Part shown: positions 1 to 14,399 of the stretch, in pieces | Position numbering within the stretch: the stretch's first letter is position 1 | How the letters are laid out: each line of letters begins with the position of its first letter | Assembly (NCBI GenBank): GCA_000002435.2 | Contig: CM018789.1 | Reading direction: 5' to 3' (one strand) | DNA length: 64,000 nt | Source: Giardia intestinalis | Taxonomy: Eukaryota | Program-made: the position numbers and the translations under genes | Notes under the pieces: model-generated | Database searches by the model: none | What the model saw: the letters and a program-made list of their open reading frames with translations, nothing else | Told to the model about the DNA's origin: nothing

Positions 1-592
1 AGTGCCTAACTGTCCTTGCCGGTGGCATTGCACAGCGAGTGCCCTGGAGGCGCCATCATGACTACGCTTTTCTGCTCTTTTGCTTACAGAGGCCATTACT
101 GTCTGTCCGCTCATGACACCATAAACACACAAGGTCAATCCCCCTGGCACTTTACTCAGAGGTGCGCCGGCTCTTTCGGAGAAGCGCTTCTCTGTGTAGC
201 TGTCTAGTGAACAGACCAGACACGGTGGTGCTATCAGCCAAGCCACTGCTGGGCAGAGCACACGGCCTGTATCTGCTCGTCTCGTGCTCTAGCCAGCCAC
301 CCCGCGTGAGCATCTGGAGGCGTGCCTGGACATATGCGTGGTATTCTGCGGTGTGCACGGTCTCGTGTCCGCACAGTAGGCCAGCCAGGGAGCGTGTGCA
401 GGCACGTCATGTGGCACCACGTCCTTTGTGGAATGCTGGAGGACCACACAGGCGAGGGTCTACCATCAAGATACGGACACGTTGCTTCCTGACATGGAAG
501 GTCAATGAGGCTATCCAGATGGCCCAGCCACGGTAGAAGGCTAGCAGATGTGATCGTATTGGCCACCAGCACTGTCACTAATACCAACATGC

Positions 593-3400
593 ATGATTAA
601 TAGATCTAGCAGGGCCGCAATGTTGCTACTAGTTCTTTGCTTTTTGATGAGCGCTCTCGCTGCACAATGCAAGGGGCACCAGCACTCCAACTGCGCAACC
701 GGCTGGTGCAGGGCGGTCCGTGGCGTCGAGGTCTGTATGAGGTGCAAAGCGGGCCACGTGCTGATCGACGGAGTGTGCGCTGATAACTCTGTTGTCTACG
801 GCGCGGGGTCCGCCTGCCAGATTCTAAACTGCAAGCAGTGTAACGCGGACAACACGCAGTGCGAGCAGTGCGAGGACGGATACACGCCGAGCGCCGGGAA
901 TACCCAGTGCAACGAGGACGCCGCGTCCGCCTGCCAGATTCTAAACTGCAAGCAGTGTAACGCGGACAACACGCAGTGCGAGCAGTGCGAGGACGGATAC
1001 ACGCCGAGCGCCGGGAATACCCAGTGCAACGAGGACGCCGCGTCCGCCTGCCAGATTCTAAACTGCAAGCAGTGTAACGCGGACAACACGCAGTGCGAGC
1101 AGTGCGAGGACGGATACACGCCGAGCGCCGGGAATACCCAGTGCAACGAGGACGCCGCGTCCGCCTGCCAGATTCTAAACTGCAAGCAGTGTAACGCGGA
1201 CAACACGCAGTGCGAGCAGTGCGAGGACGGATACACGCCGAGCGCCGGGAATACCCAGTGCAACGAGGACGCCGCGTCCGCCTGCCAGATTCTAAACTGC
1301 AAGCAGTGTAACGCGGACAACACGCAGTGCGAGCAGTGCGAGGACGGATACACGCCGAGCGCCGGGAATACCCAGTGCAACGAGGACGCCGCGTCCGCCT
1401 GCCAGATTCTAAACTGCAAGCAGTGTAACGCGGACAACACGCAGTGCGAGCAGTGCGAGGACGGATACACGCCGAGCGCCGGGAATACCCAGTGCAACGA
1501 GGACGCCGCGTCCGCCTGCCAGATTCTAAACTGCAAGCAGTGTAACGCGGACAACACGCAGTGCGAGCAGTGCGAGGACGGATACACGCCGAGCGCCGGG
1601 AATACCCAGTGCAACGAGGACGCCGCGTCCGCCTGCCAGATTCTAAACTGCAAGCAGTGTAACGCGGACAACACGCAGTGCGAGCAGTGCGAGGACGGAT
1701 ACACGCCGAGCGCCGGGAATACCCAGTGCAACGAGGACGCCGCGTCCGCCTGCCAGATTCTAAACTGCAAGCAGTGTAACGCGGACAACACGCAGTGCGA
1801 GCAGTGCGAGGACGGATACACGCCGAGCGCCGGGAATACCCAGTGCAACGAGGACGCCGCGTCCGCCTGCCAGATTCTAAACTGCAAGCAGTGTAACGCG
1901 GACAACACGCAGTGCGAGCAGTGCGAGGACGGATACACGCCGAGCGCCGGGAATACCCAGTGCAACGAGGACGCCGCGTCCGCCTGCCAGATTCTAAACT
2001 GCAAGCAGTGTAACGCGGACAACACGCAGTGCGAGCAGTGCGAGGACGGATACACGCCGAGCGCCGGGAATACCCAGTGCAACGAGGACGCCGCGTCCGC
2101 CTGCCAGATTCTAAACTGCAAGCAGTGTAACGCGGACAACACGCAGTGCGAGCAGTGCGAGGACGGATACACGCCGAGCGCCGGGAATACCCAGTGCAAC
2201 GAGGACGCCGCGTCCGCCTGCCAGATTCTAAACTGCAAGCAGTGTAACGCGGACAACACGCAGTGCGAGCAGTGCGAGGACGGATACACGCCGAGCGCCG
2301 GGAATACCCAGTGCAACGAGGACGCCGCGTCCGCCTGCCAGATTCTAAACTGCAAGCAGTGTAACGCGGACAACACGCAGTGCGAGCAGTGCGAGGACGG
2401 ATACACGCCGAGCGCCGGGAATACCCAGTGCAACGAGAACCCAGAAGCGCGGTGCAATACTCCCAACTGTAAGACCTGTGACAACCCCAAAACAGGCAAT
2501 GAAATCTGCACTAAATGTAATGATGGCGACTACCTCACCCCTACAAACCAGTGCGCACATGACTGCACAGCCATCAGCGGATACTACGGAGATACTGACA
2601 AGAAGTGTAAGCCATGCAGCCCTGAGTGCGCTGAGTGCGTTGGGCCAGCCAACAATCAGTGTAGTGCTTGTCCTGCAGGCAAGGCATTAACATATGGAGG
2701 TGGTGATCCTGCCCAAGGGGGCACCTGCGGGGATGCGTGTACGGCGGACAAGAACGGATGTAAGGTCTGTGGGGCAAGGATCGGCGGGACAGACTACTGC
2801 TCCCAGTGCTCAGTGGGTACTCAGGCTCCTCTGAACGGGGTCTGTACGGCCAACGCGCGTGCTCAGTTCTGCACACAAGTTACCAGTGGATCCTGCACGT
2901 CTTGTAGTGGGGGCTACTTCCTCAAGAATGGTGGCTGTTACCAGGCAGATAGACAGCCAGGCAAACAGATATGTACACTAGCTGATAGCAATGGTGGATG
3001 TCAGGCGTGTGCCAATGGTCTTCCTCCTAGTTCTTCTGACGTATGCCCCTCGTGTCATTTCACCTGCAAGACATGCTCGACCGCAGACATTGCAAATACT
3101 TGTACAACGTGTGCAACTGGGTACTACATGGTCGGATCAGGGCCAAACACATGTATTTCGTGTGAAAGTGACAGTGGAAGTGTCAAGGGAGTTGCTGGCT
3201 GCATGAGCTGCGCTCCTCCATCTAGCAATACTGGCTCCGTTCTCTGCTACCTCATGAACGGTGACAGTGCCGGCGGGAGCACGAATAAGAGCGGCCTTAG
3301 CACAGGTGCCATCGCTGGCATCTCTGTGGCTGTCATCGTCGTCGTCGGGGGACTCGTCGGCTTCCTCTGCTGGTGGTTCATCTGCAGGGGCAAAGCGTAG
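593..3400 (+). CDS. vsp: Variant-specific surface protein (VSP), long form with 14 x 39-aa tandem repeats
   Basis: 935-aa ORF. It has a hydrophobic signal-like N-terminus; MLLLVLCFLMSALAAQC from the second in-frame ATG at 620 may be the real start. It is Cys-rich with many CXXC motifs and a GGCY motif (FLKNGGCYQ). A C-terminal TM helix (GAIAGISVAVIVVVGGLVGFLCWWFI) is followed by CRGKA-stop. An AGTAAAC poly(A) signal lies just downstream. Confidence 0.95.
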   Translation: MINRSSRAAMLLLVLCFLMSALAAQCKGHQHSNCATGWCRAVRGVEVCMRCKAGHVLIDGVCADNSVVYGAGSACQILNCKQCNADNTQCEQCEDGYTPSAGNTQCNEDAASACQILNCKQCNADNTQCEQCEDGYTPSAGNTQCNEDAASACQILNCKQCNADNTQCEQCEDGYTPSAGNTQCNEDAASACQILNCKQCNADNTQCEQCEDGYTPSAGNTQCNEDAASACQILNCKQCNADNTQCEQCEDGYTPSAGNTQCNEDAASACQILNCKQCNADNTQCEQCEDGYTPSAGNTQCNEDAASACQILNCKQCNADNTQCEQCEDGYTPSAGNTQCNEDAASACQILNCKQCNADNTQCEQCEDGYTPSAGNTQCNEDAASACQILNCKQCNADNTQCEQCEDGYTPSAGNTQCNEDAASACQILNCKQCNADNTQCEQCEDGYTPSAGNTQCNEDAASACQILNCKQCNADNTQCEQCEDGYTPSAGNTQCNEDAASACQILNCKQCNADNTQCEQCEDGYTPSAGNTQCNEDAASACQILNCKQCNADNTQCEQCEDGYTPSAGNTQCNEDAASACQILNCKQCNADNTQCEQCEDGYTPSAGNTQCNENPEARCNTPNCKTCDNPKTGNEICTKCNDGDYLTPTNQCAHDCTAISGYYGDTDKKCKPCSPECAECVGPANNQCSACPAGKALTYGGGDPAQGGTCGDACTADKNGCKVCGARIGGTDYCSQCSVGTQAPLNGVCTANARAQFCTQVTSGSCTSCSGGYFLKNGGCYQADRQPGKQICTLADSNGGCQACANGLPPSSSDVCPSCHFTCKTCSTADIANTCTTCATGYYMVGSGPNTCISCESDSGSVKGVAGCMSCAPPSSNTGSVLCYLMNGDSAGGSTNKSGLSTGAIAGISVAVIVVVGGLVGFLCWWFICRGKA
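808..2437 (+). repeat. Perfect 117-bp tandem array, about 13.9 units, in frame within the VSP CDS
   Basis: The period was measured directly: cgcctgccag at 811 recurs at 928. The unit encodes SACQILNCKQCNADNTQCEQCEDGYTPSAGNTQCNEDAA (6 Cys, two CXXC). Units look nucleotide-identical by eye across lines 781-2460. 1630 bp / 117 = 13.9. Confidence 0.95.
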
Positions 3401-3412
3401 ATGTACTTAGAT

Positions 3413-3419
3413 AGTAAAC
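3413..3419 (+). promoter_or_regulatory. Giardia-type polyadenylation signal AGTAAAC for the left VSP
   Basis: AGTAAAC matches the AGTRAAY consensus and starts 13 nt after the TAG stop codon at 3398-3400. Confidence 0.7.
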
Positions 3420-3912
3420 GCGTCACTGTATAAAGCATATTATACTGTGATGGGGCCCTGCCTGTGGGAGCGTCCAGAAATCCCACGAGTAAGTCTCGCC
3501 CACGTCTTGGCCAATCTGAGAGCGAGAACTGGTTGTAGACAGCAAGCAGGGACTCCTCTTTATTAGTGTATCTAAAACTTGGCACCTTCTCCGGTCGCTC
3601 TGTGGGTGTGTGCTCAGTCTGGGTGTGCACGTCGGCCGTTTCGGGGTTCAGGCCTTCTCGCAGACTCTCTGGTCCACCAGTGGCGCCTCTCCTTGGTCTT
3701 CCTTCACGGTGAGTGAAGCCCGGGCCGCTGTCTTTTTTAGATGCCCCCGTCTGTCAGGGGCTGCCATCGGGCTCTCCGCTGGCTGGGCCCCTCGGTGTCC
3801 GTCCGGCTGTGGTTCTGGGTCAGCGCTTCCACAGTCGCGGTCACTTGGGTCTCAGTGGGCCGGCTGGTGGGTGGGGCGGGGGTATGGGCGGTGAGGACTG
3901 GTGGGACCGGGT

Positions 3913-5580
3913 GGGGGCTGAGATTGGTGTCCGTATGTGCTCCTGGGTTCGGTGGGCCATTGCGGCGGTGGGTGATCCCCTCTCTGTTTGCCAAGGTGGT
4001 TGTGTCTGATCCCCAGCCTTCGTTGCACTCCCGAGACACAGGCACCGACGATCGTGTCGTGTCCCCTGACTGAGCGCCTCCCTTGGCCCCTGCATGCCTC
4101 GGGCAGTACTGCTGCTCTGGTTGACTGGTACATGAGGGATGAGGCAGGCCATCGCAGCCTCTCCTGCTACTCGCTGATGCTCTGTGCGGGTCTGCTGGGC
4201 CCCTGGCATGCCCTGTCCAGTGCCTCGACGTAGTTCACCTCGGCCAGCAGGGGTGTGGATGAGCCGGTGGATGGGATGGGTTCTCTCAGGCCTCTAGTGT
4301 GATGGCCCAGAAGACTGGCACGGTGGGGCACTGGTGGCTGCACTGTCCCCGTGGTCAGCTGTGCTGCTCCTGGTGGGTCCTTGTCATGGAGCGCTGTGTG
4401 TTGTTCATAGGCAGAGGTGAGCCTCCTTGGTTTCAAGATGCTCTACCATGCAGAGAGGAGCACGCTGAGGGTCACCCATACCTCACATCTGCTGTGCCCG
4501 TTCGGGAGTTCCCGGTGTGGTCCACCAGGACCTTGACACCTCTCGTGGCTCTGATGACCCCTCGAGGAGAGCCGGGGTGTCCTATGCCAGGGGAGGCGTG
4601 CACCCTCCTGCATGAGCTGGGACCCACTGCACTGCCCTCAAGGAGGTCTGCTATGAGAGGCAGTGGGATGATTGACGGCCCCAGAGTGCGGTGGAGGGTG
4701 CTCGTGGTCATCTCTTGTGATCGGGCATCACTCTGATGGCCAGCTCTGTGCCTGTGTGGTGCTCAGAGGCCACCTGTCTGCCTCATCGCCTGCTGGACAG
4801 CCGGGTCTCTTGTGGTGTCCGAAGGCCTCCTCACTCCTCTGGCTGCTGCCCCCTCGGGTCATCAATGAAGACAGTCGAGGCCAGCGGAGTCTTCGGTGAG
4901 TCTGGTGCCTGCCTGGGTGTCATGGGGGCTGGCAGCTGTCAGGGCTCTGCCACTGCTCACCTGCCTGGAGTGTGCCTCCCTTGGACCTACTGTGCTGCGT
5001 GAGTCCTCTGGCTTCCTATCAGGCCCTGACTGTGAGGGTGACCCCACCTGGTCCTCTGATGCCCCTGTGGATGAGCATAGCAATGTGTCTGATTGAGGAT
5101 CTCTGGTGCCCGTGTCTGTTGCTGCCTCTCGGGTGCTCGGGTAGTTGCCTGGCACTCTCGTATGGGGGCACAGTCAGCGTGTCCCGAGCAGACTCCAGTC
5201 CTCTCTGGGTCCACACAGTCTGTTCGTGTGTGGATGATCCTCCTGCACTCAGGTCCATCTGTGCACACTATCACTCAGCCTCGAGAGCAGGCCAGTGCAG
5301 TCGCCAGGGTTGCTGTCAGAGGGAGTCGTCTGCCACTACATCGCTCGAGCAGACTCTACAGATCAGGCTGGCTGCTGTGCACCCTCATGGCAGGGCTGCC
5401 TGACTCCCCTTGGTCATCCTCTCTGTCCCGGTGTGCACGGCTCCTGAGGGTTGTCTGGGTGGAGGCACTCACAGACCACGAGCACACAGAGGGGTGAGTC
5501 ATAGATGGACAGCCATCAGTCACCACAGCTGCGATCACCCCAGTCTATCGAGGGACCAGGGGCACATACAGACACCCACC
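3913..5580. other. Unique GC-rich core of the inter-VSP spacer; no credible CDS
   Basis: This is the only part of 1-7971 without a mirror copy. Many overlapping 60-145 aa ORFs occur on both strands in several frames, as expected from stop-poor GC-rich DNA. I recognise no motif in any of them. Confidence 0.6.
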
Positions 5581-6073
5581 ACCCGGTCCCACCAGTCCTC
5601 ACCGCCCATACCCCCGCCCCACCCACCAGCCGGCCCACTGAGACCCAAGTGACCGCGACTGTGGAAGCGCTGACCCAGAACCACAGCCGGACGGACACCG
5701 AGGGGCCCAGCCAGCGGAGAGCCCGATGGCAGCCCCTGACAGACGGGGGCATCTAAAAAAGACAGCGGCCCGGGCTTCACTCACCGTGAAGGAAGACCAA
5801 GGAGAGGCGCCACTGGTGGACCAGAGAGTCTGCGAGAAGGCCTGAACCCCGAAACGGCCGACGTGCACACCCAGACTGAGCACACACCCACAGAGCGACC
5901 GGAGAAGGTGCCAAGTTTTAGATACACTAATAAAGAGGAGTCCCTGCTTGCTGTCTACAACCAGTTCTCGCTCTCAGATTGGCCAAGACGTGGGCGAGAC
6001 TTACTCGTGGGATTTCTGGACGCTCCCACAGGCAGGGCCCCATCACAGTATAATATGCTTTATACAGTGACGC

Positions 6074-6080
6074 GTTTACT
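6074..6080 (-). promoter_or_regulatory. Polyadenylation signal AGTAAAC for the right VSP (mirror of 3413-3419)
   Basis: The plus strand reads gtttact, whose reverse complement is AGTAAAC. Spacing from the stop codon is the same as on the left. Confidence 0.7.
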
Positions 6081-6092
6081 ATCTAAGTACAT

Positions 6093-7379
6093 CTACGCTT
6101 TGCCCCTGCAGATGAACCACCAGCAGAGGAAGCCGACGAGTCCCCCGACGACGACGATGACAGCCACAGAGATGCCAGCGATGGCACCTGTGCTAAGGCC
6201 GCTCTTATTCGTGCTCCCGCCGGCACTGTCACCGTTCATGAGGTAGCAGAGAACGGAGCCAGTATTGCTAGATGGAGGAGCGCAGCTCATGCAGCCAGCA
6301 ACTCCCTTGACACTTCCACTGTCACTTTCACACGAAATACATGTGTTTGGCCCTGATCCGACCATGTAGTACCCAGTTGCACACGTTGTACAAGTATTTG
6401 CAATGTCTGCGGTCGAGCATGTCTTGCAGGTGAAATGACACGAGGGGCATACGTCAGAAGAACTAGGAGGAAGACCATTGGCACACGCCTGACATCCACC
6501 ATTGCTATCAGCTAGTGTACATATCTGTTTGCCTGGCTGTCTATCTGCCTGGTAACAGCCACCATTCTTGAGGAAGTAGCCCCCACTACAAGACGTGCAG
6601 GATCCACTGGTAACTTGTGTGCAGAACTGAGCACGCGCGTTGGCCGTACAGACCCCGTTCAGAGGAGCCTGAGTACCCACTGAGCACTGGGAGCAGTAGT
6701 CTGTCCCGCCGATCCTTGCCCCACAGACCTTACATCCGTTCTTGTCCGCCGTACACGCATCCCCGCAGGTGCCCCCTTGGGCAGGATCACCACCTCCATA
6801 TGTTAATGCCTTGCCTGCAGGACAAGCACTACACTGATTGTTGGCTGGCCCAACGCACTCAGCGCACTCAGGGCTGCATGGCTTACACTTCTTGTCAGTA
6901 TCTCCGTAGTATCCGCTGATGGCTGTGCAGTCATGTGCGCACTGGTTTGTAGGGGTGAGGTAGTCGCCATCATTACATTTAGTGCAGATTTCATTGCCTG
7001 TTTTGGGGTTGTCACAGGTCTTACAGTTGGGAGTATTGCACCGCGCTTCTGGGTTCTCGTTGCACTGGGTATTCCCGGCGCTCGGCGTGTATCCGTCCTC
7101 GCACTGCTCGCACTGCGTGTTGTCCGCGTTACACTGCTTGCAGTTTAGAATCTGGCAGGCGGACCCCGCGCCGTAGACAACAGAGTTATCAGCGCACACT
7201 CCGTCGATCAGCACGTGGCCCGCTTTGCACCTCATACAGACCTCGACGCCACGGACCGCCCTGCACCAGCCGGTTGCGCAGTTGGAGTGCTGGTGCCCCT
7301 TGCATTGTGCAGCGAGAGCGCTCATCAAAAAGCAAAGAACTAGTAGCAACATTGCGGCCCTGCTAGATCTATTAATCAT
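6093..7379 (-). CDS. vsp: Variant-specific surface protein (VSP), short form with a single repeat unit
   Basis: 428-aa ORF. It is amino-acid-identical to the left VSP at the N-terminus (first ~110 aa) and C-terminus (last ~318 aa, including GGCY, the TM helix and CRGKA). It lacks 507 aa, which equals 13 repeat units. An alternative start at 7352 mirrors 620. Confidence 0.95.
   Translation of the reverse strand: MINRSSRAAMLLLVLCFLMSALAAQCKGHQHSNCATGWCRAVRGVEVCMRCKAGHVLIDGVCADNSVVYGAGSACQILNCKQCNADNTQCEQCEDGYTPSAGNTQCNENPEARCNTPNCKTCDNPKTGNEICTKCNDGDYLTPTNQCAHDCTAISGYYGDTDKKCKPCSPECAECVGPANNQCSACPAGKALTYGGGDPAQGGTCGDACTADKNGCKVCGARIGGTDYCSQCSVGTQAPLNGVCTANARAQFCTQVTSGSCTSCSGGYFLKNGGCYQADRQPGKQICTLADSNGGCQACANGLPPSSSDVCPSCHFTCKTCSTADIANTCTTCATGYYMVGSGPNTCISCESDSGSVKGVAGCMSCAPPSSNTGSVLCYLMNGDSAGGSTNKSGLSTGAIAGISVAVIVVVGGLVGFLCWWFICRGKA
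7056..7164 (-). repeat. Single copy of the 117-bp repeat unit in the short VSP
   Basis: The mirror coordinates of 808-2437 collapse to 109 bp (1630-1521). The protein reads ...GSACQILNCKQCNADNTQCEQCEDGYTPSAGNTQCNENPEA... only once. Confidence 0.9.
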
Positions 7380-8049
7380 GCATGTTGGTATTAGTGACAG
7401 TGCTGGTGGCCAATACGATCACATCTGCTAGCCTTCTACCGTGGCTGGGCCATCTGGATAGCCTCATTGACCTTCCATGTCAGGAAGCAACGTGTCCGTA
7501 TCTTGATGGTAGACCCTCGCCTGTGTGGTCCTCCAGCATTCCACAAAGGACGTGGTGCCACATGACGTGCCTGCACACGCTCCCTGGCTGGCCTACTGTG
7601 CGGACACGAGACCGTGCACACCGCAGAATACCACGCATATGTCCAGGCACGCCTCCAGATGCTCACGCGGGGTGGCTGGCTAGAGCACGAGACGAGCAGA
7701 TACAGGCCGTGTGCTCTGCCCAGCAGTGGCTTGGCTGATAGCACCACCGTGTCTGGTCTGTTCACTAGACAGCTACACAGAGAAGCGCTTCTCCGAAAGA
7801 GCCGGCGCACCTCTGAGTAAAGTGCCAGGGGGATTGACCTTGTGTGTTTATGGTGTCATGAGCGGACAGACAGTAATGGCCTCTGTAAGCAAAAGAGCAG
7901 AAAAGCGTAGTCATGATGGCGCCTCCAGGGCACTCGCTGTGCAATGCCACCGGCAAGGACAGTTAGGCACTGCCAATAGGCCAGTCTGCGTCAGTAAACA
8001 CGCAGTGTTCGCAGGCCGAACCATGTACCTTTGCAAGCGGGCAGTGTAA

Positions 8050-11000
8050 CCATTTCAACTTTTAATGCTGTTAAGCGATCTGTATAGTCCGCTTCATCTG
8101 GACGCCTCACGTGCCTTCGCCGCAACCACTGCTTCCATCTCGCAAGCCAACCATGCTATTGATGGAATGAGGCAGCAATACATCCGCCGCCCTTAATTCG
8201 CCCAGGCTGCCAATTCCACCCTGCAAGCTGCCCGCCACCTACCGTAGATCGATGTGGATGCATACTGCGGTGTGGTTGGGCCTGGAATAAGCAGATCTCA
8301 ACTGGGAGTCAGTCTCCTACTCTCCGTCGTCTGGCTCTGTCTCTGGTGTGAGCAGGACCATGCAACCACGAAAGACATCAGCTCCCTGCCAGTAGACAAT
8401 ATGCGCTGCAGAATAGGAGAACGTAGTGGGCCCCTAAGCTGCCCCGCTCGAGGAGCCGCTGCTTCTTTAACAGGGTTGCCCGACGACAGCAGGCACCAGT
8501 ATGGCTACCAGGCCCTTCTGGCTCTGACTTGCAGAGCATCCCCAGCACCGCTCCGGTAAGAGCTGTCTTTCCTATTGGCTTCTGCCGTCCGGGCGTCAGT
8601 TATGGCGAGAATTAACCCTTGCCCATTGGTACTGGTCGAACACTCACTACGTGTTGCTCGTCTAGGAAAGATTGATCTTGCCGCTCCACGGGCTATTCGC
8701 CATGCTGGATGACGAACATATGTGCCACTCAGCCCCTAGTCTTTATTGGATGCAAGGCCAGCTATGCAGGGTTACAGGGCCGCCTCGCCATCCTTAAGTT
8801 GAGCTCTTAGAAGTGTCCTACGTTTTACTAGACGCAACCTAGGTCCGTCCAACTCTATGCTTTATACTAATTCTAGATTGGGTTAAGCGTGCCTGGTAGT
8901 GAAGGTATCTACGGTACTTCCACTCACCGTGAGCAGTTCATAGAAGCCCCTGTGGCTCATCGCCTTCAATACTTGTGCGTTCACTCATCGATACCTCCGC
9001 GTTATTCAGCATAACTATAGTATGTCACCTGTATGCGTCAAGCTACAGCTCCTAAGTGTCTTACAGCAAATACCTTGCGTCTGAGCACCTGGTTAATTCA
9101 GCATCCACGCGTATAAAACATGATAGAAGTCTGTGGAGTATGGTGGCTTCCATTTTCTCTTTCCCCTTTTCTGACTCTGGTTGACTTTATCTTTGCTGGG
9201 TCAAATATGCACTATCTACGCGCACCTTAATGTTAACGGCACTCGTATGTCCTGCCAGGTCATATAAATCTTTATCAGCCGTTGCATGATAATTGTCTGG
9301 CATAATATGCAATCTGGTATTGAATGAAGAATAAAGCGCCCACTTTTGTAATGAGGACTTGTTGTGCTTATGCTGGGAAATAATAGATGGTCAAGTATAA
9401 CCGTACAAGGCTGTAGGACACTCTGCTGGACGATTTTATGAGTATAGGAAGCTGCCTGCTTTAACCTACAGCTCATTTCATTCACGTCATAAGCATTTTG
9501 CCACACAAGATCACTTTAAAAGCATTCTGTGATTACCAGACATCTTTTGATACCAGTCCCGGGTCAACAAAGCAAGCTGCTTATTGTAATTTGGAAAATT
9601 GGGTAACGGCTCCATGGATTCTTGGGTATCATGCCCACTAATCAGCAACTACCAAATATCCTACTTCGCATCTACTTTTTGCAATCTGTTTTTTGTAAGA
9701 CGGCGACTGAAGCGCTAATGGCTCAGTTTCCTAGACCATCCATATCTCTACATAAAGGTTGCCATCGGAAGTCTCCATAAATAGAACATGCAAACTCGAC
9801 AGACAAGCTTCTAGTATCAGCCTTCTCACAATGTATCTATGACAACGGGTCTGTCTTTAGTCAATCGATACTTATCCAGAGAACAGTAGCGCGGCAGTAG
9901 TATAGATGATTATTACGTAGCTTATGCAGGGGCTTGTTGTCAGCAACAAGAGATAAAACAACCTTAGCCTTACAAGATTAAAAGTTCCACATTAGCTAAA
10001 AACGATAGGCTCAGTGACCATTTTTCATGCCACTCACCAAACTTAAGCCGTTTACAGATTTGACGTTTAGTTGCTCTTACAATCTTTACTCTGCTGGTTG
10101 TCTGTTTGTTTGGATCTCTAGTTAAGGTTGGGCCAGTCTGCAATCTTACTCGTGCTCAATTGCGTGACACGCCATAACCATAATATCATTTATGATCTAG
10201 CCATCTATTGCAGGCGCTACTTGCTACATCAGAAACAATGACCGTGGATCCATTACCTTCCCTTTGGTGGTCAAAGTATCATAAGGGACAGACTCTTCTC
10301 ATGTGCTGGTTGGGCCGCTTAATCTTGTCAGTACAAACTTCTCTCACGATTCAAGCTAGTTGTGATAGTGATGGCATAATTTCCCTAGCAATCAGTTACT
10401 CAGTTCAATCCTTGCCTCAATATTATAACGAGTTGGACGCCTTGAGTCACAACGAGTCGGTGAAATTAGTATCTCAAAGCTTGCACGGATGTAAAGCATC
10501 GCGTTGGACATCACTGGATAAAGGCATGTACCAGTTGAGAATTGGTGCAACTTCTGGCTAACTCTTGAAGGCCCACGCTCCCTAACATGAACGTGGACAA
10601 GGCCAATCCCAGGCTCTGCGCCATATGGGTTTGTCACGAAGTCCTTGCCAGTAGGCACACAAAGCGACTGTTCTTGTCGCTTTTCTCGTGCTGTCGGTCT
10701 TGATTTGTCCTCTATGCGGCGTGGTGCAGTAGACAACCTCACCCCCTATGACCTTCCGTTGCGCAGCTCGTAACTGCTGTACACAATGCGTCTGCAAAGA
10801 GCCGACATGACAACGGCCCTATTTGGATGCTGCCCATGCAGAACCAGGCTTACGACTGCGTCTTGCAGCTATTAGCCGTGTATTCCATTTACTGCTGATT
10901 GCCTGGTCTATTATCACATATCTATGTATTGGCAAAGCAAGGCCCGTCCTTTTCTCGAAGGCAATAAAGCAATCTATTTGATCTACACCTTGCGCCCTTA

Positions 11001-11899
11001 AGCATATATCGGAAGACTACAATCAGCTCGTTCTGACTAGACTACATCATGGAAGGCATGAAAGGTCAGTTGGGTTTGTAACATACAGTGACGTAAAGTC
11101 ATTCGCGTCTCTTCAAAGCACCAAAGCAGCCCGCAAAAGTGTTCATTCAGATGGCTTTCTATCTCCATGTGACGATGCTCATGTGGATTTTCAGTACATT
11201 TACAGTGGTATTTCTGTGCGGCTCACATGTCTTATGAAAGTCTATGTTACCGATAGCTGGATGCAGATCTTCCTATTCTGTAAGATATTCATCGTCGTTC
11301 AACGTGTTCATAGCATGACATATCTGGCGTTTGCCTAGTTTGCCAATGCAAGTGCTTTCACTCTATGCTTACAAAAAGCACGAAGCCCAAGGGAGGATGG
11401 CCACAACCCCGAGGAGCGTGTATACAGCTGGCGACTTTAAGGGCCTACGTGAAAAGTACTAATATCCGTCCATGATTGCTCTTACAGTACTTTAATAATA
11501 GGCTAATAATAGATTCCCTGATGGCTATGCAGGATGGTATGTACCACCTGCAATGTTGAAAGATGTCCCAGCATGTACAGAAACACGTTGTGTACCCTAG
11601 AATCTACCAGTGATACTGGTGTGTAGAAGCAATTCATATATAAGAAGCGGTGTGCACAGACTCACTAAGAATGAGGAGGATAATTGGCAAGCAAAATAAG
11701 CTCTTACATTATTTCAAGAAGCATGCATTCACGACTTGGAGCTAAGAATGACGTATAAGTTATTTGAAAGCATAACACACTTAGAGGCAGAGCTGCAAAT
11801 CGCCTTTATCATATACAGGCAGTCACGTGGAACCATGCATGAAGATTCATGTTGTGGCACACCTTCACAGCTTCGTGGTTGGCGTCACGCCCAAGACCT
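8050..11899. other. ORF-free stretch (gene desert) between the VSP palindrome and the core genes
   Basis: The longest track ORFs here (8254-8559, 9216-9506, 10208-10561, 10392-10742) are 96-117 aa. All four start at non-ATG codons (GTG/TTG, checked in the sequence), they overlap each other, and they carry no motif I recognise. Stop codons are frequent in all six frames. Confidence 0.7.
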
Positions 11900-12424
11900 C
11901 TAATCATCGGTGAGATCAATAGTGCTATTGCTAAGATCAATGACTGGAACCCGCTTCAGAGCCCGTTGGTGCGCAATGTATCTTACCTCTTGGTAGTAGT
12001 TGTGGCAGGCACGGATTGTAAGTCCAGCGGCCTGGTTAATTCGGTGCGCTTGTGCGTGCCAGACGGGCCCGTGATGCACTCGCTCGAACACCTTCAGTCT
12101 GAAAAGGTAGGCGTGGATCATCTCATGCACCAGCACGTCGAGCAGGTCGTGTTGTGAACGATATTGGAGTAGAGGTGCAGATAGGATAATTACAATAGGA
12201 CTATGCTCTTCTGTTCGCGTCCCTCTGTATTTGCATAGACCTGCAGAACGTGTTAGCCTATTGCTCCAATGAACCACAACATCTCTCAGGCAATTGTCGA
12301 AAAAAGCCTCGTTGAAATGCCTAAAGAGCGCGTGCACATCACCAAAAGGCCAGTGTTGTGTTTCTAGTTCCTGAGAGGTAGGTGGTGGGGCAGCAAAAAA
12401 GTCCAGGAGGGGGTTGCTATCCAT
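11900..12424 (-). CDS. SprT-like zinc metalloprotease, SPRTN/Spartan-type (DNA-protein crosslink repair) ortholog
   Basis: 174 aa from the ATG at 12424 (context CATAAAAATG). The longer track ORF would run into the neighbouring gene. Motifs: FRHFNEAFFDN...VHWSNRLTRSAGLC, HExxH in LLDVLVHEMIHAYLF, then HGPVWHAQAHRIN. These are colinear with the human SPRTN block LLHEMIHAYLF...HGPEF...HRIN as I recall it. Confidence 0.85.
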   Translation of the reverse strand: MDSNPLLDFFAAPPPTSQELETQHWPFGDVHALFRHFNEAFFDNCLRDVVVHWSNRLTRSAGLCKYRGTRTEEHSPIVIILSAPLLQYRSQHDLLDVLVHEMIHAYLFRLKVFERVHHGPVWHAQAHRINQAAGLTIRACHNYYQEVRYIAHQRALKRVPVIDLSNSTIDLTDD

Positions 12425-12428
12425 TTTT
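12425..12428. promoter_or_regulatory. 4-bp spacer (TTTT) between two divergent start codons; minimal bidirectional initiator
   Basis: The plus strand reads CAT-TTTT-ATG at 12422-12431. CAT is the SPRTN-like start codon on the minus strand, and ATG is the Nei-like start codon. Confidence 0.6.
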
Positions 12429-13847
12429 ATGCCAGAGCATCCTGAGGTTCGAGCCTTCGCAGAACGCATAACGTTTGAGGCAGAGCACACTCTCTTTACT
12501 AACGTCTCTACTTCGAGGGCGTGTGTGTATAAGGCCCTCCCACCTTTGTTCCTTGATGATTCCATAAAAGTAGCATTTACCATAAGGTGCGAATCTCGAG
12601 GCAAGCAGCTCCGAGTTGACCTGGCTCGGGCAGCTGATCCACCTAGGAATGAGGCAAAGAGTATTTTTGTGCGTCTGAAAAGAAATACATCTGACACCTC
12701 AGAGACACCCTATGATTTGTGCAAAACAACCGCTTTAAGCCGCCCCTGGGAACACTCAGATCACGCTGTGGCGCTTACCATACCAACCAGTATCGTGATT
12801 GGCCTGGGATTAGCAGGCTGTATCAACACCTTCTTAACCCCAGAGGAAGCTTTGAAGTCTAACGCACATCTCTTGTTTGAGGCATCTGATGCTGTGTTAG
12901 CAGTATGCTCGCCACGGCCAGAGACCATGTACTGGCGAGTAGGAGACTTCGACCATGCACGGTCCCCTGATCCTGTGGCACAGTACCTAGACTATGTGTC
13001 CAAGATACTGTCCAAACTGTCACATATTCCTATAGGTCTTGACGGGTCTTTCATTGTGCCACCCAAGTCGATATTTTCACAACCCATATGCCGGCTTCTT
13101 TTGTCTCAGGAATTGTTCAACGGAGTAGGGAATTACCTACGAGCAGAGGCCATGCACCGACTTCTTATTCACCCTTTCACCCCAAGCGTCTATGTGTTTG
13201 AAGAGCTTATCCATTGGGTTCATGACACCGTGCGAGAAACCCCTCGATTCCACAACTTGAGTAACAAGTGGAGAAGTCTTGCCGAAAAGAATGTCTCTAT
13301 TATCGAGACCAAGTGCCCACTCATCCCGATGATCAGAAGGCTATGTGAGGAGGCCTATGCTGTTCTGGATGATCACAGACTCTTTTCGGAGTGGCTTTTA
13401 TGCTATAAGAAAGCAACTAATTGCATTCTTGATTCCGGGGGCAGAGAAGTTTGGTTCTTCGAAAAGCTAGTCGCAAACAAATCCAGTCATGCAAGTGAGC
13501 ACGGCGATAAGAAGAATTCTGCTGAGAAGCCAGATGCATGTACCCTGTCAGAGCTCATACTGTCCTCTGAACCTAGTCTTAAAAAGGTTGCAGTACAGCA
13601 ACTGGCTACGTCAAACGCAGAAAATGTCATTCTTAATAGCACGGAGAATGATGCTGATGTCAGCCAGCTAGACATCTTGGAATACTCTCGCAAAGACCTC
13701 CTTCGACGAGGCACGGTACTCGACAATCTTCCAATTGATTCTAGAAACGAGTCAGCTAGTCGATGGCAGGACAAGATTGTTCGGAAGAGTACTGTCCAAC
13801 AATTACATGACGCTCGAACGTTTCAAGCAAGCCTCCAGTCGAAGTAA
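12429..13847 (+). CDS. Fpg/Nei-family DNA glycosylase, NEIL1-like
   Basis: 472 aa from the ATG at 12429; the track start at 12414 is TTG. The N-terminus MPEHPEV matches the catalytic Pro2-Glu3 signature of Fpg/Nei. An H2TH motif LLLSQELFNGVGNYLRAEAMHRLLIHPF resembles E. coli Nei [20 protein letters not shown] and NEIL1 FFNGIGNYLRAEIL. AGTAAAG overlaps the TAA stop. Confidence 0.88.
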   Translation: MPEHPEVRAFAERITFEAEHTLFTNVSTSRACVYKALPPLFLDDSIKVAFTIRCESRGKQLRVDLARAADPPRNEAKSIFVRLKRNTSDTSETPYDLCKTTALSRPWEHSDHAVALTIPTSIVIGLGLAGCINTFLTPEEALKSNAHLLFEASDAVLAVCSPRPETMYWRVGDFDHARSPDPVAQYLDYVSKILSKLSHIPIGLDGSFIVPPKSIFSQPICRLLLSQELFNGVGNYLRAEAMHRLLIHPFTPSVYVFEELIHWVHDTVRETPRFHNLSNKWRSLAEKNVSIIETKCPLIPMIRRLCEEAYAVLDDHRLFSEWLLCYKKATNCILDSGGREVWFFEKLVANKSSHASEHGDKKNSAEKPDACTLSELILSSEPSLKKVAVQQLATSNAENVILNSTENDADVSQLDILEYSRKDLLRRGTVLDNLPIDSRNESASRWQDKIVRKSTVQQLHDARTFQASLQSK

Positions 13848-13865
13848 AGCAGAGAGTCCGCGGGC

Positions 13866-14399
13866 CTATATCTGCCTGACCATTATCTTATCATCCAAGG
13901 AGTACAGAAGGTGGTCGCTATACAGCTGTACAATGGGAGGCGGCTCTGTTTCAGAGATGGGCATTGTGCTTCTACAATACTGGTCTACAATCTCTAACTG
14001 ATCAGATACCTTCATGATCGTGTAGTGGTTTGCAAGAAAGAGGGCAGAACGGGCGTTGAGTAATCGTGTAAACGGGGGTTGGTGACACAGCTGGCTGTTC
14101 AACTGTTCAACCCTCTGCACCCTCAGCGGCTGCAGGCTGCCTCTCATGGCCAAGAGGTTGAGCCCGTCGGTTCCGACGGTGTAGAGCACTTGCTTGCAGG
14201 TGAGCGCGGAGTCGAAAATGGGATACGAGGGGGCCAGCTGGGCGTGTGTGTGAAGAAGGGCGTTCCTTATCAGATCCCAGACCTTCACAGACCCGTCGAT
14301 GCTGGTGGAAACCAGCGCGCTGTCGGCGACGTGCAGCGACGTCACCGCGTGGCTGTGAGAAAGGGTCGTGGCGGGGTGGGGCGGAAAAGCGTGCACCAT
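13866..14399 (-). CDS. Hypothetical protein with WD40-like repeats (short)
   Basis: 177-aa ATG-initiated ORF with a WD-type blade HSHAVTSLHVADSALVSTSIDGSVKVWDL. It is too short for a full propeller, and the ATG context is GC-rich (GACTCCCGCATGG), which is atypical for this locus. Confidence 0.55.
   Translation of the reverse strand: MVHAFPPHPATTLSHSHAVTSLHVADSALVSTSIDGSVKVWDLIRNALLHTHAQLAPSYPIFDSALTCKQVLYTVGTDGLNLLAMRGSLQPLRVQRVEQLNSQLCHQPPFTRLLNARSALFLANHYTIMKVSDQLEIVDQYCRSTMPISETEPPPIVQLYSDHLLYSLDDKIMVRQI

What the first reader, a model, noticed from the sequence alone, without database searches (positions are those of the whole stretch)
1..7971. Apparently perfect ~8-kb palindrome built from two convergent VSP genes
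Positions 1-3912 and 5581-7971 are reverse complements. Each arm carries at least 592 bp of 5' flank, a complete VSP gene and 512 bp of 3' flank, including the AGTAAAC poly(A) signal. Twin ORFs in several overlapping frames are amino-acid-identical on both arms. That leaves little room for even synonymous differences, so the copies were either duplicated very recently or are kept identical by gene conversion. The only difference I can find is repeat copy number (next finding). The repeat reaches position 1, so its true outer boundary and size are unknown, and the right arm may continue past 7971. Tail-to-tail duplicated vsp genes have been reported in Giardia (I recall the vsp1267 pair). The architecture class is therefore known, but this asymmetric pair is worth characterising. 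A palindrome of this size is also a potential site of cruciform formation, replication stalling and flip-flop recombination in an antigen gene family.
Basis: partly seen in the sequence, partly recalled or inferred. Interest (0 to 1): 0.7.

Follow-up and report, generated by a model that had tools for sequence, protein, structure and literature searches.

The report
Known Giardia tail-to-tail VSP gene pair
This is a real inverted duplication of a Giardia surface-antigen (VSP) gene that was already catalogued in 2010 as the pair vsp87.1/vsp87.2. Its only unusual feature is that one copy has 13 more copies of a 39-amino-acid repeat than the other.

Summary
Window 1-3914 and 5579-7971 are exact reverse complements, except that the left arm has 13 extra 117-bp coding repeats (13.9 copies against 0.9). 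A unique, non-coding 1,664-bp spacer (3915-5578) separates the arms.

Both ORFs are typical Giardia VSPs: Pfam PF03302, a CRGKA tail, a CAATGTT initiator and an AGTAAAC poly(A) signal. They are the annotated genes GL50803_0050392 (926 aa) and GL50803_00112647 (419 aa) on chromosome 1 of the G. intestinalis WB reference.

Adam et al. 2010 already list this locus as the tail-to-tail identical inverted pair vsp87.1/87.2 with a 117-nt repeat. Their 3' divergence point (514 nt) is exactly the one found here. The 2,692-bp ORF distance matches the mean of the 12 tail-to-tail pairs in the 2020 reference (2,693 ± 77 bp).

The architecture is therefore known and this pair is already described. Later catalogues (2020, 2022) leave it out of their lists of duplicated pairs, probably because the ORF lengths differ.

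The likely mechanism, which is inferred, is arm homogenisation by gene conversion or a recent duplication, plus fast repeat slippage. A cruciform is unlikely with so long a spacer. The outer boundary could not be determined. Interest is low.

The parts
1..3914 (+). Left (long) arm of the inverted repeat. It is cut by the window start, so its outer end is unknown.
   Evidence: 1-916 and 2329-3914 pair perfectly with the right arm. It carries 1,521 bp (13 x 117) more than the right arm.
1..619 (+). 5' flank of the left VSP gene, identical to 7353-7971 on the other strand.
   Evidence: perfect pairing of 1-916 with 7056-7971.
618..624 (+). VSP initiator motif CAATGTT, which contains the annotated start ATG (620-622).
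   Evidence: Sequence read. Adam 2010 lists vsp87 as INR CAATGTT. The reference proteins start at MLLLVL.
620..3400 (+). Long VSP gene, 926 aa, GL50803_0050392 / XP_037901619.1. An upstream in-frame ATG at 593 would give 935 aa.
   Evidence: PF03302, E 9e-101. The preprint's supplementary table gives 926 aa and 131 Cys, and the 935-aa ORF from ATG 593 has 131 Cys; its nine extra N-terminal residues contain none.
808..2437 (+). Array of 13.9 identical 117-bp units. Each unit encodes 39 aa with 6 Cys and 2 CXXC motifs.
   Evidence: TRF, 100% matches; 12 interior units identical.
3413..3419 (+). AGTAAAC poly(A) signal of the left gene, 13 nt after the stop codon.
   Evidence: The same 20-mer TACTTAGATAGTAAACGCGT is listed for GL50803_0050392 and GL50803_00112647 in the preprint supplement.
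3401..3914 (+). 3' flank of the left gene (514 nt), identical to 5579-6092 on the other strand.
   Evidence: It equals the '3' divergence 514' given for vsp87 in Adam 2010, Table 5.
3915..5578 (.). Unique spacer of 1,664 bp, GC about 0.61, non-coding. Its first ~32 nt and last ~23 nt keep a degenerate trace of the arms (3926-3946 against 5556-5576).
   Evidence: No self or inverted homology. No Pfam hit for its ORFs. No significant VSP remnant by tblastn. No Rfam family. Edge homology; composition.
5579..7971 (-). Right (short) arm of the inverted repeat. The end at 7971 is set only by the window start on the other arm.
6074..6080 (-). AGTAAAC poly(A) signal of the right gene.
   Evidence: Mirror of 3413-3419 (paired positions sum to 9493) within the perfectly paired segment.
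6093..7352 (-). Short VSP gene, 419 aa, GL50803_00112647 / XP_001707111.2 (P0001). The upstream ATG at 7379 gives the 428-aa form of the 2007 annotation (XP_001707111.1, P0121).
   Evidence: PF03302, E 8e-92.
7056..7164 (-). Single incomplete (0.93) copy of the 117-bp unit in the right gene.
   Evidence: The unit carries both the first-unit variants and the last-unit variant of the long array. No tandem array is reported on this arm.
7348..7354 (-). CAATGTT initiator of the right gene.
   Evidence: Mirror of 618-624 (paired positions sum to 7972) within the perfectly paired segment.

Best explanation
The feature is a genuine, already catalogued tail-to-tail inverted duplication of a variant-specific surface protein gene on chromosome 1 of Giardia intestinalis WB. 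It is vsp87.1/vsp87.2 of Adam et al. 2010, now annotated as GL50803_0050392 and GL50803_00112647.

Shown here. There are two convergent, complete VSP genes, each with its own initiator and poly(A) signal. Their arms are base-for-base identical over 2,393 nt. A unique 1,664-bp non-coding spacer separates the arms. The only difference is 13 extra perfect 117-bp (39-aa) units in the left gene.

Inferred. The arms are identical either because the duplication is recent or, more likely, because arm-to-arm gene conversion keeps them alike. Conversion is favoured because the same arrangement, with the same ~2.69-kb spacing, recurs in at least 12 other WB pairs and in G. muris. The repeat array changes length by replication slippage or unequal sister-chromatid exchange. 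That process is faster than point substitution, and inter-arm conversion has not erased the length difference.

The locus gives the parasite two length variants (about 419 and 926 aa) of one antigen type. Each should be subject to the usual one-VSP-at-a-time expression control.
For: Geometry.

VSP identity: (PF03302, CRGKA tail, GGCY motif, signal peptide). Searches show the initiator and poly(A) signal.

Gene identity: P0001 (XP_001707111.2, WB, contig of 1,485,438 bp) matches the right ORF at 100%. P0121 (XP_001707111.1, 428 aa) matches the right ORF over all 427 residues compared (the query lacked the initial Met). The preprint's supplementary tables give GL50803_00112647 = XP_001707111.2 and GL50803_0050392 = XP_037901619.1, 926 aa with 131 Cys, both on NC_051856.1.

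Match to vsp87 of Adam 2010 (PMC2996952): tail-to-tail identical pair, TR117, INR CAATGTT, 623 aa, 83 Cys, 27 CXXC. These are exactly the values of the 428-aa ORF plus five 39-aa units. The 3' divergence of 514 nt is the boundary found here.

Spacing: the 2,692-bp ORF distance compares with a mean of 2,693 (sd 77) for the 12 convergent pairs in Xu 2020, Table 2.

Related loci: the preprint's S4 table says the intergenic region between 50392 and 112647 is very similar to that of the 14586/d14586 pair on chromosome 5. G. muris also has internally identical head-to-head and tail-to-tail VSP pairs.

Precedent for repeat variation: allelic or paralogue differences in VSP repeat copy number are documented for vspA6, vspA6-S1 and vspC5.
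Against: No reads were available, so neither the arm-spacer-arm linkage nor the two copy numbers were checked directly. The Sanger-era analysis gave about 6 units (623 aa) where the PacBio reference gives 14, so at least one of these counts is inexact or the array is unstable between stocks. Polishing with multi-mapping short reads could have made nearly identical arms look perfectly identical. Adam 2010 prints an ORF distance of 2,393 for vsp87, against 2,693 expected here by their convention. That is exactly 300 off, so probably a misprint, but a real 300-bp difference is not excluded. Nothing in this window separates ongoing gene conversion from a very young duplication. Identity ends abruptly, with only about 30 nt of degenerate homology beyond it.
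Confidence: 0.85

Rival explanations
1. Assembly artefact. The inverted copy, or the 14-versus-1 repeat asymmetry, was produced by fold-back or chimeric long reads, by collapse of one array, or by assigning two allelic array lengths of a tetraploid to the two arms.
For: The window starts inside the left arm. Identical pairs are known to end contigs (PMC2996952). Repeat number differs between the Sanger-era table (5 repeats, 623 aa) and this sequence (13.9 copies). Adam 2010 warns that copy numbers may be condensed by assembly and that alleles differ in copy number for vspA6 and vspC5. The 2022 preprint notes that VSP pairs had been questioned as artefacts in the older assembly.
Against: The same tail-to-tail pair, with the same 514-nt 3' divergence point, was found in the independent Sanger assembly. 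A one-unit 428-aa gene was already annotated in 2007 (P0121), alongside a multi-unit form (623 aa). Fold-back artefacts join arms directly and do not create a 1,664-bp unique spacer. The spacing matches that of 12 other pairs. The arms-as-alleles version cannot be excluded without reads.
Confidence: 0.08
2. A very recent one-off inverted duplication with no ongoing homogenisation. The arms are identical only because too little time has passed for substitutions, and the array expanded or contracted afterwards.
For: There are zero substitutions in 2,393 nt. Identity ends abruptly, with no diverged outer zone. Adam 2010 favoured recent duplication and transposition for the 14 identical pairs.
Against: About 20 pairs in WB are all internally identical, with no identical VSP genes outside such pairs. 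The tail-to-tail spacing is uniform. A different pair on chromosome 5 shares a very similar intergenic region. G. muris has the same kind of identical pairs. Many independent duplications, all very recent, are less parsimonious than old palindromes kept uniform. None of this is a direct test on this locus.
Confidence: 0.25
3. The inverted pair acts as a source of hairpin double-stranded RNA. Read-through from one gene across the spacer into the antisense of its twin would give a Dicer substrate that feeds RNAi-based VSP silencing.
For: The convergent identical arms would be self-complementary in a read-through transcript. In WB, 81% of convergent gene pairs with mapped 3' UTRs show transcript overlap (PMC3610916). 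RNAi and antisense VSP transcripts are implicated in VSP control (PMC2817412).
Against: Each gene has a canonical AGTAAAC poly(A) signal 13 nt after its stop, and the twin lies about 2.7 kb downstream. No RNA data were examined. No paper found or 68 links small RNAs to the pairs. Head-to-head pairs, which are equally identical, would not form such hairpins.
Confidence: 0.07

Closest known systems
vsp87.1 (GL50803_112647) / vsp87.2, a tail-to-tail identical inverted pair with TR117 (Adam et al. 2010, BMC Genomics 11:424)
   Same: This is the same locus. It shares the 117-nt repeat, the CAATGTT initiator and the 514-nt 3' divergence. Its 623 aa / 83 Cys / 27 CXXC equal the 428-aa ORF plus five units.
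   Different: The 2010 table reports 5 repeats and treats the ORFs as identical, whereas this sequence has 13.9 against 0.9 copies. The printed ORF distance is 2,393 against 2,693 by their convention. The chromosome was unassigned in 2010 and is now chromosome 1.
vsp1267 pair (GL50803_112208 / d112208), the first described Giardia tail-to-tail VSP duplication
   Same: Convergent identical VSP genes on chromosome 1, about 2.65 kb between ORFs, no gene in between.
   Different: It is a different VSP (596 aa), has no tandem repeat, and its two ORFs are the same length.
GL50803_0014586 / d14586 pair on chromosome 5
   Same: Tail-to-tail, 2,689 bp between ORFs. The 2022 preprint's S4 table states that its intergenic region is very similar to the one between 50392 and 112647.
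   Different: It has a different coding sequence (719 aa, per Xu Table 2) and equal-length ORFs. I could not retrieve the sequence to verify the similarity.
vspA6 (CRP170) and vspA6-S1/G3M; allelic repeat variation in vspC5
   Same: These are nearly identical VSP genes that differ mainly in tandem coding-repeat number (about 23 against about 1 copy of a 195-bp unit). Alleles also differ in copy number.
   Different: Those genes are not the two arms of one inverted pair, and they carry scattered substitutions outside the repeats.
Identical VSP pairs of Giardia muris
   Same: Seven pairs of identical VSP genes, head-to-head or tail-to-tail.
   Different: A different species. The intervening DNA carries NEK, ARP or zinc-finger remnants, whereas this spacer has no recognisable gene remnant.
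Large palindromes kept uniform by arm-to-arm gene conversion, such as the human Y-chromosome ampliconic palindromes (own knowledge, used as an analogy only)
   Same: Near-identical inverted arms around a unique spacer, with identity ending abruptly at the spacer.
   Different: Different scale and organism. Conversion has not been shown for Giardia VSP pairs.

Membership tests
[quoted passage not shown] | Match to the Pfam VSP family (PF03302) above the curated cut-off | tested here: met
   338 and 309 bits against a cut-off of 31.4, for the 926-aa and 419-aa ORFs.
[quoted passage not shown] | C-terminal hydrophobic anchor followed by the invariant CRGKA tail | tested here: met
   both ORFs end ...AIAGISVAVIVVVGGLVGFLCWWFICRGKA*.
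[quoted passage not shown] | N-terminal signal peptide, many CXXC motifs (about 11-13% Cys) and a GGCY motif | tested here: met
   Counted on the ORFs from the upstream ATG (428 and 935 aa): 53 Cys / 17 CXXC and 131 Cys / 43 CXXC. Hydrophobic N-terminus MLLLVLCFLMSALA and GGCY are visible. The signal peptide was judged by eye, not with SignalP.
[quoted passage not shown] | PyAATGTT initiator at the start codon and an AGTAAA-type poly(A) signal just after the stop | tested here: met
   CAATGTT at 618-624. AGTAAAC at 3413-3419. Both are mirrored on the right arm.
Giardia identical inverted VSP pair, tail-to-tail type (Adam 2010; Xu 2020) | Two VSP ORFs in convergent orientation with no gene between them | tested here: met
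   The spacer ORFs have no Pfam hit and no significant VSP remnant.
Giardia identical inverted VSP pair, tail-to-tail type (Adam 2010; Xu 2020) | Identical coding sequences in the two members | tested here: not met
   The ORFs are 926 and 419 aa. They are identical at every aligned base but differ by 13 repeat units. This is probably why Xu 2020 Table 2 omits the pair and the 2022 preprint calls the genes 'non duplicated'. Adam 2010 did file it as an identical pair.
Giardia identical inverted VSP pair, tail-to-tail type (Adam 2010; Xu 2020) | Flanks identical up to an abrupt divergence point a few hundred nt (318-559) 3' of the stop | tested here: met
   514 nt, the same as the published value for vsp87. 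Only about 30 nt of degenerate homology lie beyond it.
Giardia identical inverted VSP pair, tail-to-tail type (Adam 2010; Xu 2020) | About 2.5-2.8 kb between the two ORFs | tested here: met
   2,692 bp, against 2,526-2,813 (mean 2,693) for 12 pairs.
Cruciform-forming or perfect palindrome | Arms adjoining or separated by only a few bases, so that intrastrand pairing can nucleate | tested here: not met
   There is a 1,664-bp unique spacer and the arms are unequal. That long spacers disfavour extrusion is general knowledge and was not tested.

The most novel reading that the evidence does not exclude
Because its arms differ in length by 1.5 kb, this is the one Giardia VSP palindrome in which the two arms can be told apart physically. 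It could show directly whether the arms exchange. Flip-flop inversion of the spacer, or transfer of array length by gene conversion, would be visible within a clonal population. It could also show whether read-through across the spacer yields hairpin RNA that feeds VSP silencing. If the arms do exchange at measurable rates, this locus would be the first direct evidence of concerted evolution acting on Giardia antigen genes.
Probability: 0.15. Interest if true: 0.55.

Novelty: already known. Interest (0 to 1): 0.15.

Why it matters
It matters little as a discovery, because inverted VSP pairs are a textbook feature of the Giardia genome and this pair is already in the 2010 catalogue. Two small points have practical value. 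First, the 2020 and 2022 lists of duplicated pairs leave this pair out, apparently because they required equal ORF lengths. The number of inverted VSP duplications in WB is therefore under-counted by at least one, and reads map ambiguously to both genes. Second, the length asymmetry makes this pair a convenient natural marker for testing arm-to-arm recombination and repeat instability in an antigen gene.

Tried and rejected
1. Extending leftwards to find the outer boundary failed. The look-up of encoding contigs has no record for the WB chromosome proteins: P0001, the 926-aa and 428-aa ORFs, P0088, and two flank ORFs. A scan of JGI metagenome contigs with a 42-nt flank probe found nothing.

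2. Short-read (Logan) contigs reached through neighbouring genes stop at 8941/8964 or at about 14.3-14.5 kb. They never enter the arms, so they say nothing about the palindrome boundary.

3. A coordinate slip occurred. I gave window:6093-7376:-, which drops the Met rather than the stop codon. The exact look-up of the short protein is therefore invalid. The homology search is unaffected. The correct range is 6096-7379.

4. I looked for a gene, VSP pseudogene, RNA family or internal symmetry in the spacer and found none. A recurrent 23-aa tblastn match of the VSP membrane anchor to 5097-5165 has E about 1, and that frame contains stops, so I rejected it.

5. I tested whether the closest non-WB relative marks an orthologous palindrome. 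It is P0002 from isolate DH (locus L013). The locus is not syntenic and shares only the 3' ~1 kb of coding sequence at 88.6%.

6. I could not verify the reported similarity of the spacer to that of the 14586 pair, because that sequence is not retrievable with these tools.


Full report
**Observation.** Three independent checks agree that the first 7,971 bases form an inverted repeat. The checks were repeat finder, BLASTN of the window against itself and a base-by-base walk. Segment 1-916 pairs without a mismatch with 7056-7971, and 2329-3914 pairs without a mismatch with 5579-7164. On the right arm these two perfect segments overlap by 109 nt. The whole right arm (5579-7971, 2,393 nt) is therefore an exact reverse complement of the left arm (1-3914) once 1,521 bp are removed from the left. 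That is exactly 13 x 117 bp.

Tandem Repeats Finder reports a single array at 808-2437, with period 117, 13.9 copies and 100% matches. The right arm has 0.9 copy (7056-7164). Its unit carries both the edge variants of the first unit and the edge variant of the last unit of the long array. Either a contraction between the first and last units or an expansion of the interior would therefore produce the difference.

Perfect identity ends at 3914/5579. A further 21 nt match at 19/21 after a short indel (local score 32; maximum 28 in 100 shuffles), and then all similarity stops. The spacer, 3915-5578, is 1,664 bp long. The structure is an inverted repeat with unequal arms and a long spacer, not a perfect palindrome. 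Because the left arm runs into window position 1, the apparent end of the right arm at 7971 is set by the window and is not a biological boundary.

**What the arms carry.** The left ORF (593 or 620 to 3400, plus strand) and the right ORF (6093 to 7379 or 7352, minus strand) both end in a hydrophobic anchor and CRGKA. Both contain GGCY and many CXXC motifs. Both match Pfam PF03302 (Giardia VSP) at 338 and 309 bits against a cut-off of 31. The second in-frame ATG (620) sits in the VSP initiator CAATGTT (618-624). AGTAAAC lies 13 nt after the stop (3413-3419). Both elements are mirrored on the right arm. Each arm is therefore a complete VSP transcription unit with 619 nt of 5' flank and 514 nt of 3' flank.

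The spacer has no ORF with a Pfam hit, no significant VSP remnant, no Rfam family and no internal symmetry. Its composition (GC about 0.61, T over A on the plus strand) continues that of the left 3' flank and is opposite to that of the right 3' flank.

**Identity of the locus.** The short protein is 100% identical to P0001. P0001 is KAE8301640.1 / XP_001707111.2, a VSP of G. intestinalis WB clone C6, on a contig of 1,485,438 bp. With the upstream ATG it matches the 428-aa XP_001707111.1 of the 2007 annotation over all 427 residues compared (P0121; the query lacked the initial Met).

The supplementary tables of bioRxiv 10.1101/2022.03.07.483299 give GL50803_00112647 = XP_001707111.2 and GL50803_0050392 = XP_037901619.1. 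The latter is 926 aa with 131 Cys and starts MLLLVLCFLMSALAAQC, followed by the same repeat. Both are on NC_051856.1. The ORF counted from the upstream ATG at 593 (935 aa) has 131 Cys, and its nine extra N-terminal residues contain none, so the 926-aa form also has 131. The window is therefore part of chromosome 1 of the WB reference, and both genes are already annotated.

**Prior description.** Adam et al. [quoted passage not shown] The flanks are identical up to an abrupt divergence point.

Their Additional file 1 lists vsp87.1 (GL50803_112647) and vsp87.2 as a tail-to-tail identical inverted pair. The entry gives a 117-nt tandem repeat (5 repeats), initiator CAATGTT, 623 aa, 83 Cys and 27 CXXC. 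The 428-aa ORF plus five 39-aa units gives exactly 623 aa, 83 Cys and 27 CXXC.

Their Table 5 gives a 3' divergence of 514 nt for vsp87, which is exactly the boundary found here. The printed ORF distance is 2,393. For seven pairs shared with Xu et al. 2020, the Adam values equal the Xu values plus one. This locus would then give 2,693, so the printed figure is off by exactly 300 and is probably a misprint. A real difference cannot be excluded.

Xu et al. 2020 (PMC7000408) list 19 duplicated pairs in the PacBio reference, 12 of them convergent. This pair is absent from the table. The 2022 preprint calls 50392 and 112647 'non duplicated VSP genes'. It also notes that their intergenic region is very similar to that of the 14586/d14586 pair on chromosome 5. 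The likely reason for both omissions is that the lists required equal ORFs. The 2,692-bp ORF distance found here falls on the mean of the 12 convergent pairs (2,693, sd 77). G. muris also has seven internally identical VSP pairs.

**Artefact or real.** Several points argue for a real structure:
- The same pair, with the same 3' divergence point, was found in the independent Sanger assembly.
- A 1,664-bp unique spacer is present, which fold-back chimeras do not create.
- The spacing is the canonical one for tail-to-tail pairs.
- A one-unit gene was already annotated in 2007 (P0121), beside a multi-unit form in the 2010 table.

The exact array length is less secure (about 6 units in 2010 against 13.9 here). 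Adam et al. warn that arrays may be condensed by assembly and that alleles of vspA6 and vspC5 differ in copy number. Two other possibilities remain open: that the long and short arrays are alleles rather than arms, and that polishing with multi-mapping reads made near-identical arms perfectly identical.

**Mechanism.** The following is shown: two complete, convergent VSP units; no substitutions between the arms; all 13.9 repeat units identical; and a length difference of 13 units.

The following is inferred. The array changes length by slippage or unequal sister-chromatid exchange, faster than substitutions arise. Whatever keeps the arms alike has not carried the array length across.

Arm-to-arm gene conversion seems more likely to me than a unique recent duplication, for four reasons. 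About 20 pairs in WB are all internally identical, and no identical VSP genes occur outside such pairs. The tail-to-tail spacing is uniform. A different pair is reported to share the intergenic region. A distant species shows the same pattern. None of this is a direct test on this locus. The abrupt end of identity fits either model.

Cruciform extrusion is unlikely with a 1.66-kb spacer; this is general knowledge and was not tested. Flip-flop inversion of the spacer by recombination in the 1.48 kb of identity between the array and the spacer is possible. Because the arms differ in length, it would be easy to detect in long reads or by PCR. A role as a hairpin-RNA source for RNAi-based VSP silencing is not excluded, but nothing I examined supports it. 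Each gene has a canonical poly(A) signal, and head-to-head pairs are just as identical.

**Related sequences elsewhere.** The nearest relative outside WB is P0002 of isolate DH (86% identity over 79% of the query). It lies in a non-syntenic locus and shares only the last ~1 kb of coding sequence, to 21 nt past the stop, at 88.6%. The repeat-bearing N-terminal part is different. This fits the mosaic evolution described for VSPs but does not help to date the palindrome.

**Verdict.** The interpretation as a tail-to-tail VSP duplication of a known class is right. The pair itself is already known as vsp87.1/87.2. What remains of interest is modest. Later catalogues of duplicated pairs overlooked the pair, and its 13-unit asymmetry makes it a handy natural marker for studying recombination between the arms of a VSP palindrome. 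Interest is 0.15.

Noticed in passing
window 8941-14375: A 5.4-kb segment occurs in two genomic contexts. It holds a SprT-like ORF (11900-12697, minus), a Nei/Fpg-like 472-aa gene (12429-13847, plus) and the 3' part of a WD40 gene (13866-14375, minus). Nine short-read contigs (L004-L012) match it with two differences (8981 T>C, 14371 G>A). Past 14375 they continue into sequence absent from the window: an intact 295-aa WD40 gene, then PUF, ribosomal S4 and others. L003 crosses 14375 exactly as the window does, and L002 stops 30 nt past the junction. The window copy therefore carries a 5'-truncated WD40 gene and looks like the derived copy of a segmental duplication next to the VSP pair. An outer continuation of the palindrome on the unseen left side is not excluded.
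   Followed up: partly
window about 8940-8965: All six long short-read contigs coming from the right start at 8941 or 8964. At this point GC falls from 0.54 (7972-8940) to 0.42 (8941-9900). It appears to mark the edge between GC-rich, gene-poor VSP-associated DNA and ordinary gene-dense sequence.
   Followed up: partly
window 3915-5578: The spacer is compositionally one-sided. AT skew is -0.31, -0.27 and -0.11 in its three thirds. This continues the left 3' flank (-0.285) and opposes the right 3' flank (+0.285), as if the spacer were the original downstream region of the left gene and the right arm the inserted copy.
   Followed up: no
literature (PMC2996952 Table 5 against PMC7000408 Table 2): For seven shared pairs, the 2010 ORF distances equal the 2020 distances plus one. 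For vsp87 the printed 2,393 is exactly 300 less than the 2,693 expected from this sequence, so it is probably a misprint. For vsp48 (137707/137708) the two papers differ by 445 bp: 3,222 against 2,777.
   Followed up: no
window 796-2511, minus strand: A 571-aa open frame runs antisense through the whole 117-bp array. It is a by-product of the perfect repeat, whose period is a multiple of three and which has no stop codon in that frame. It is not evidence of a gene.
   Followed up: no
L013 11575-11874 (isolate DH, AHGT01000035.1): A 99-aa VSP fragment (PF03302) overlaps the end of the DH relative P0002 and lies directly downstream of it. Its 3' end is 77% identical to the last ~140 nt of the genes in this window. 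It looks like a VSP tail remnant in head-to-tail position.
   Followed up: no
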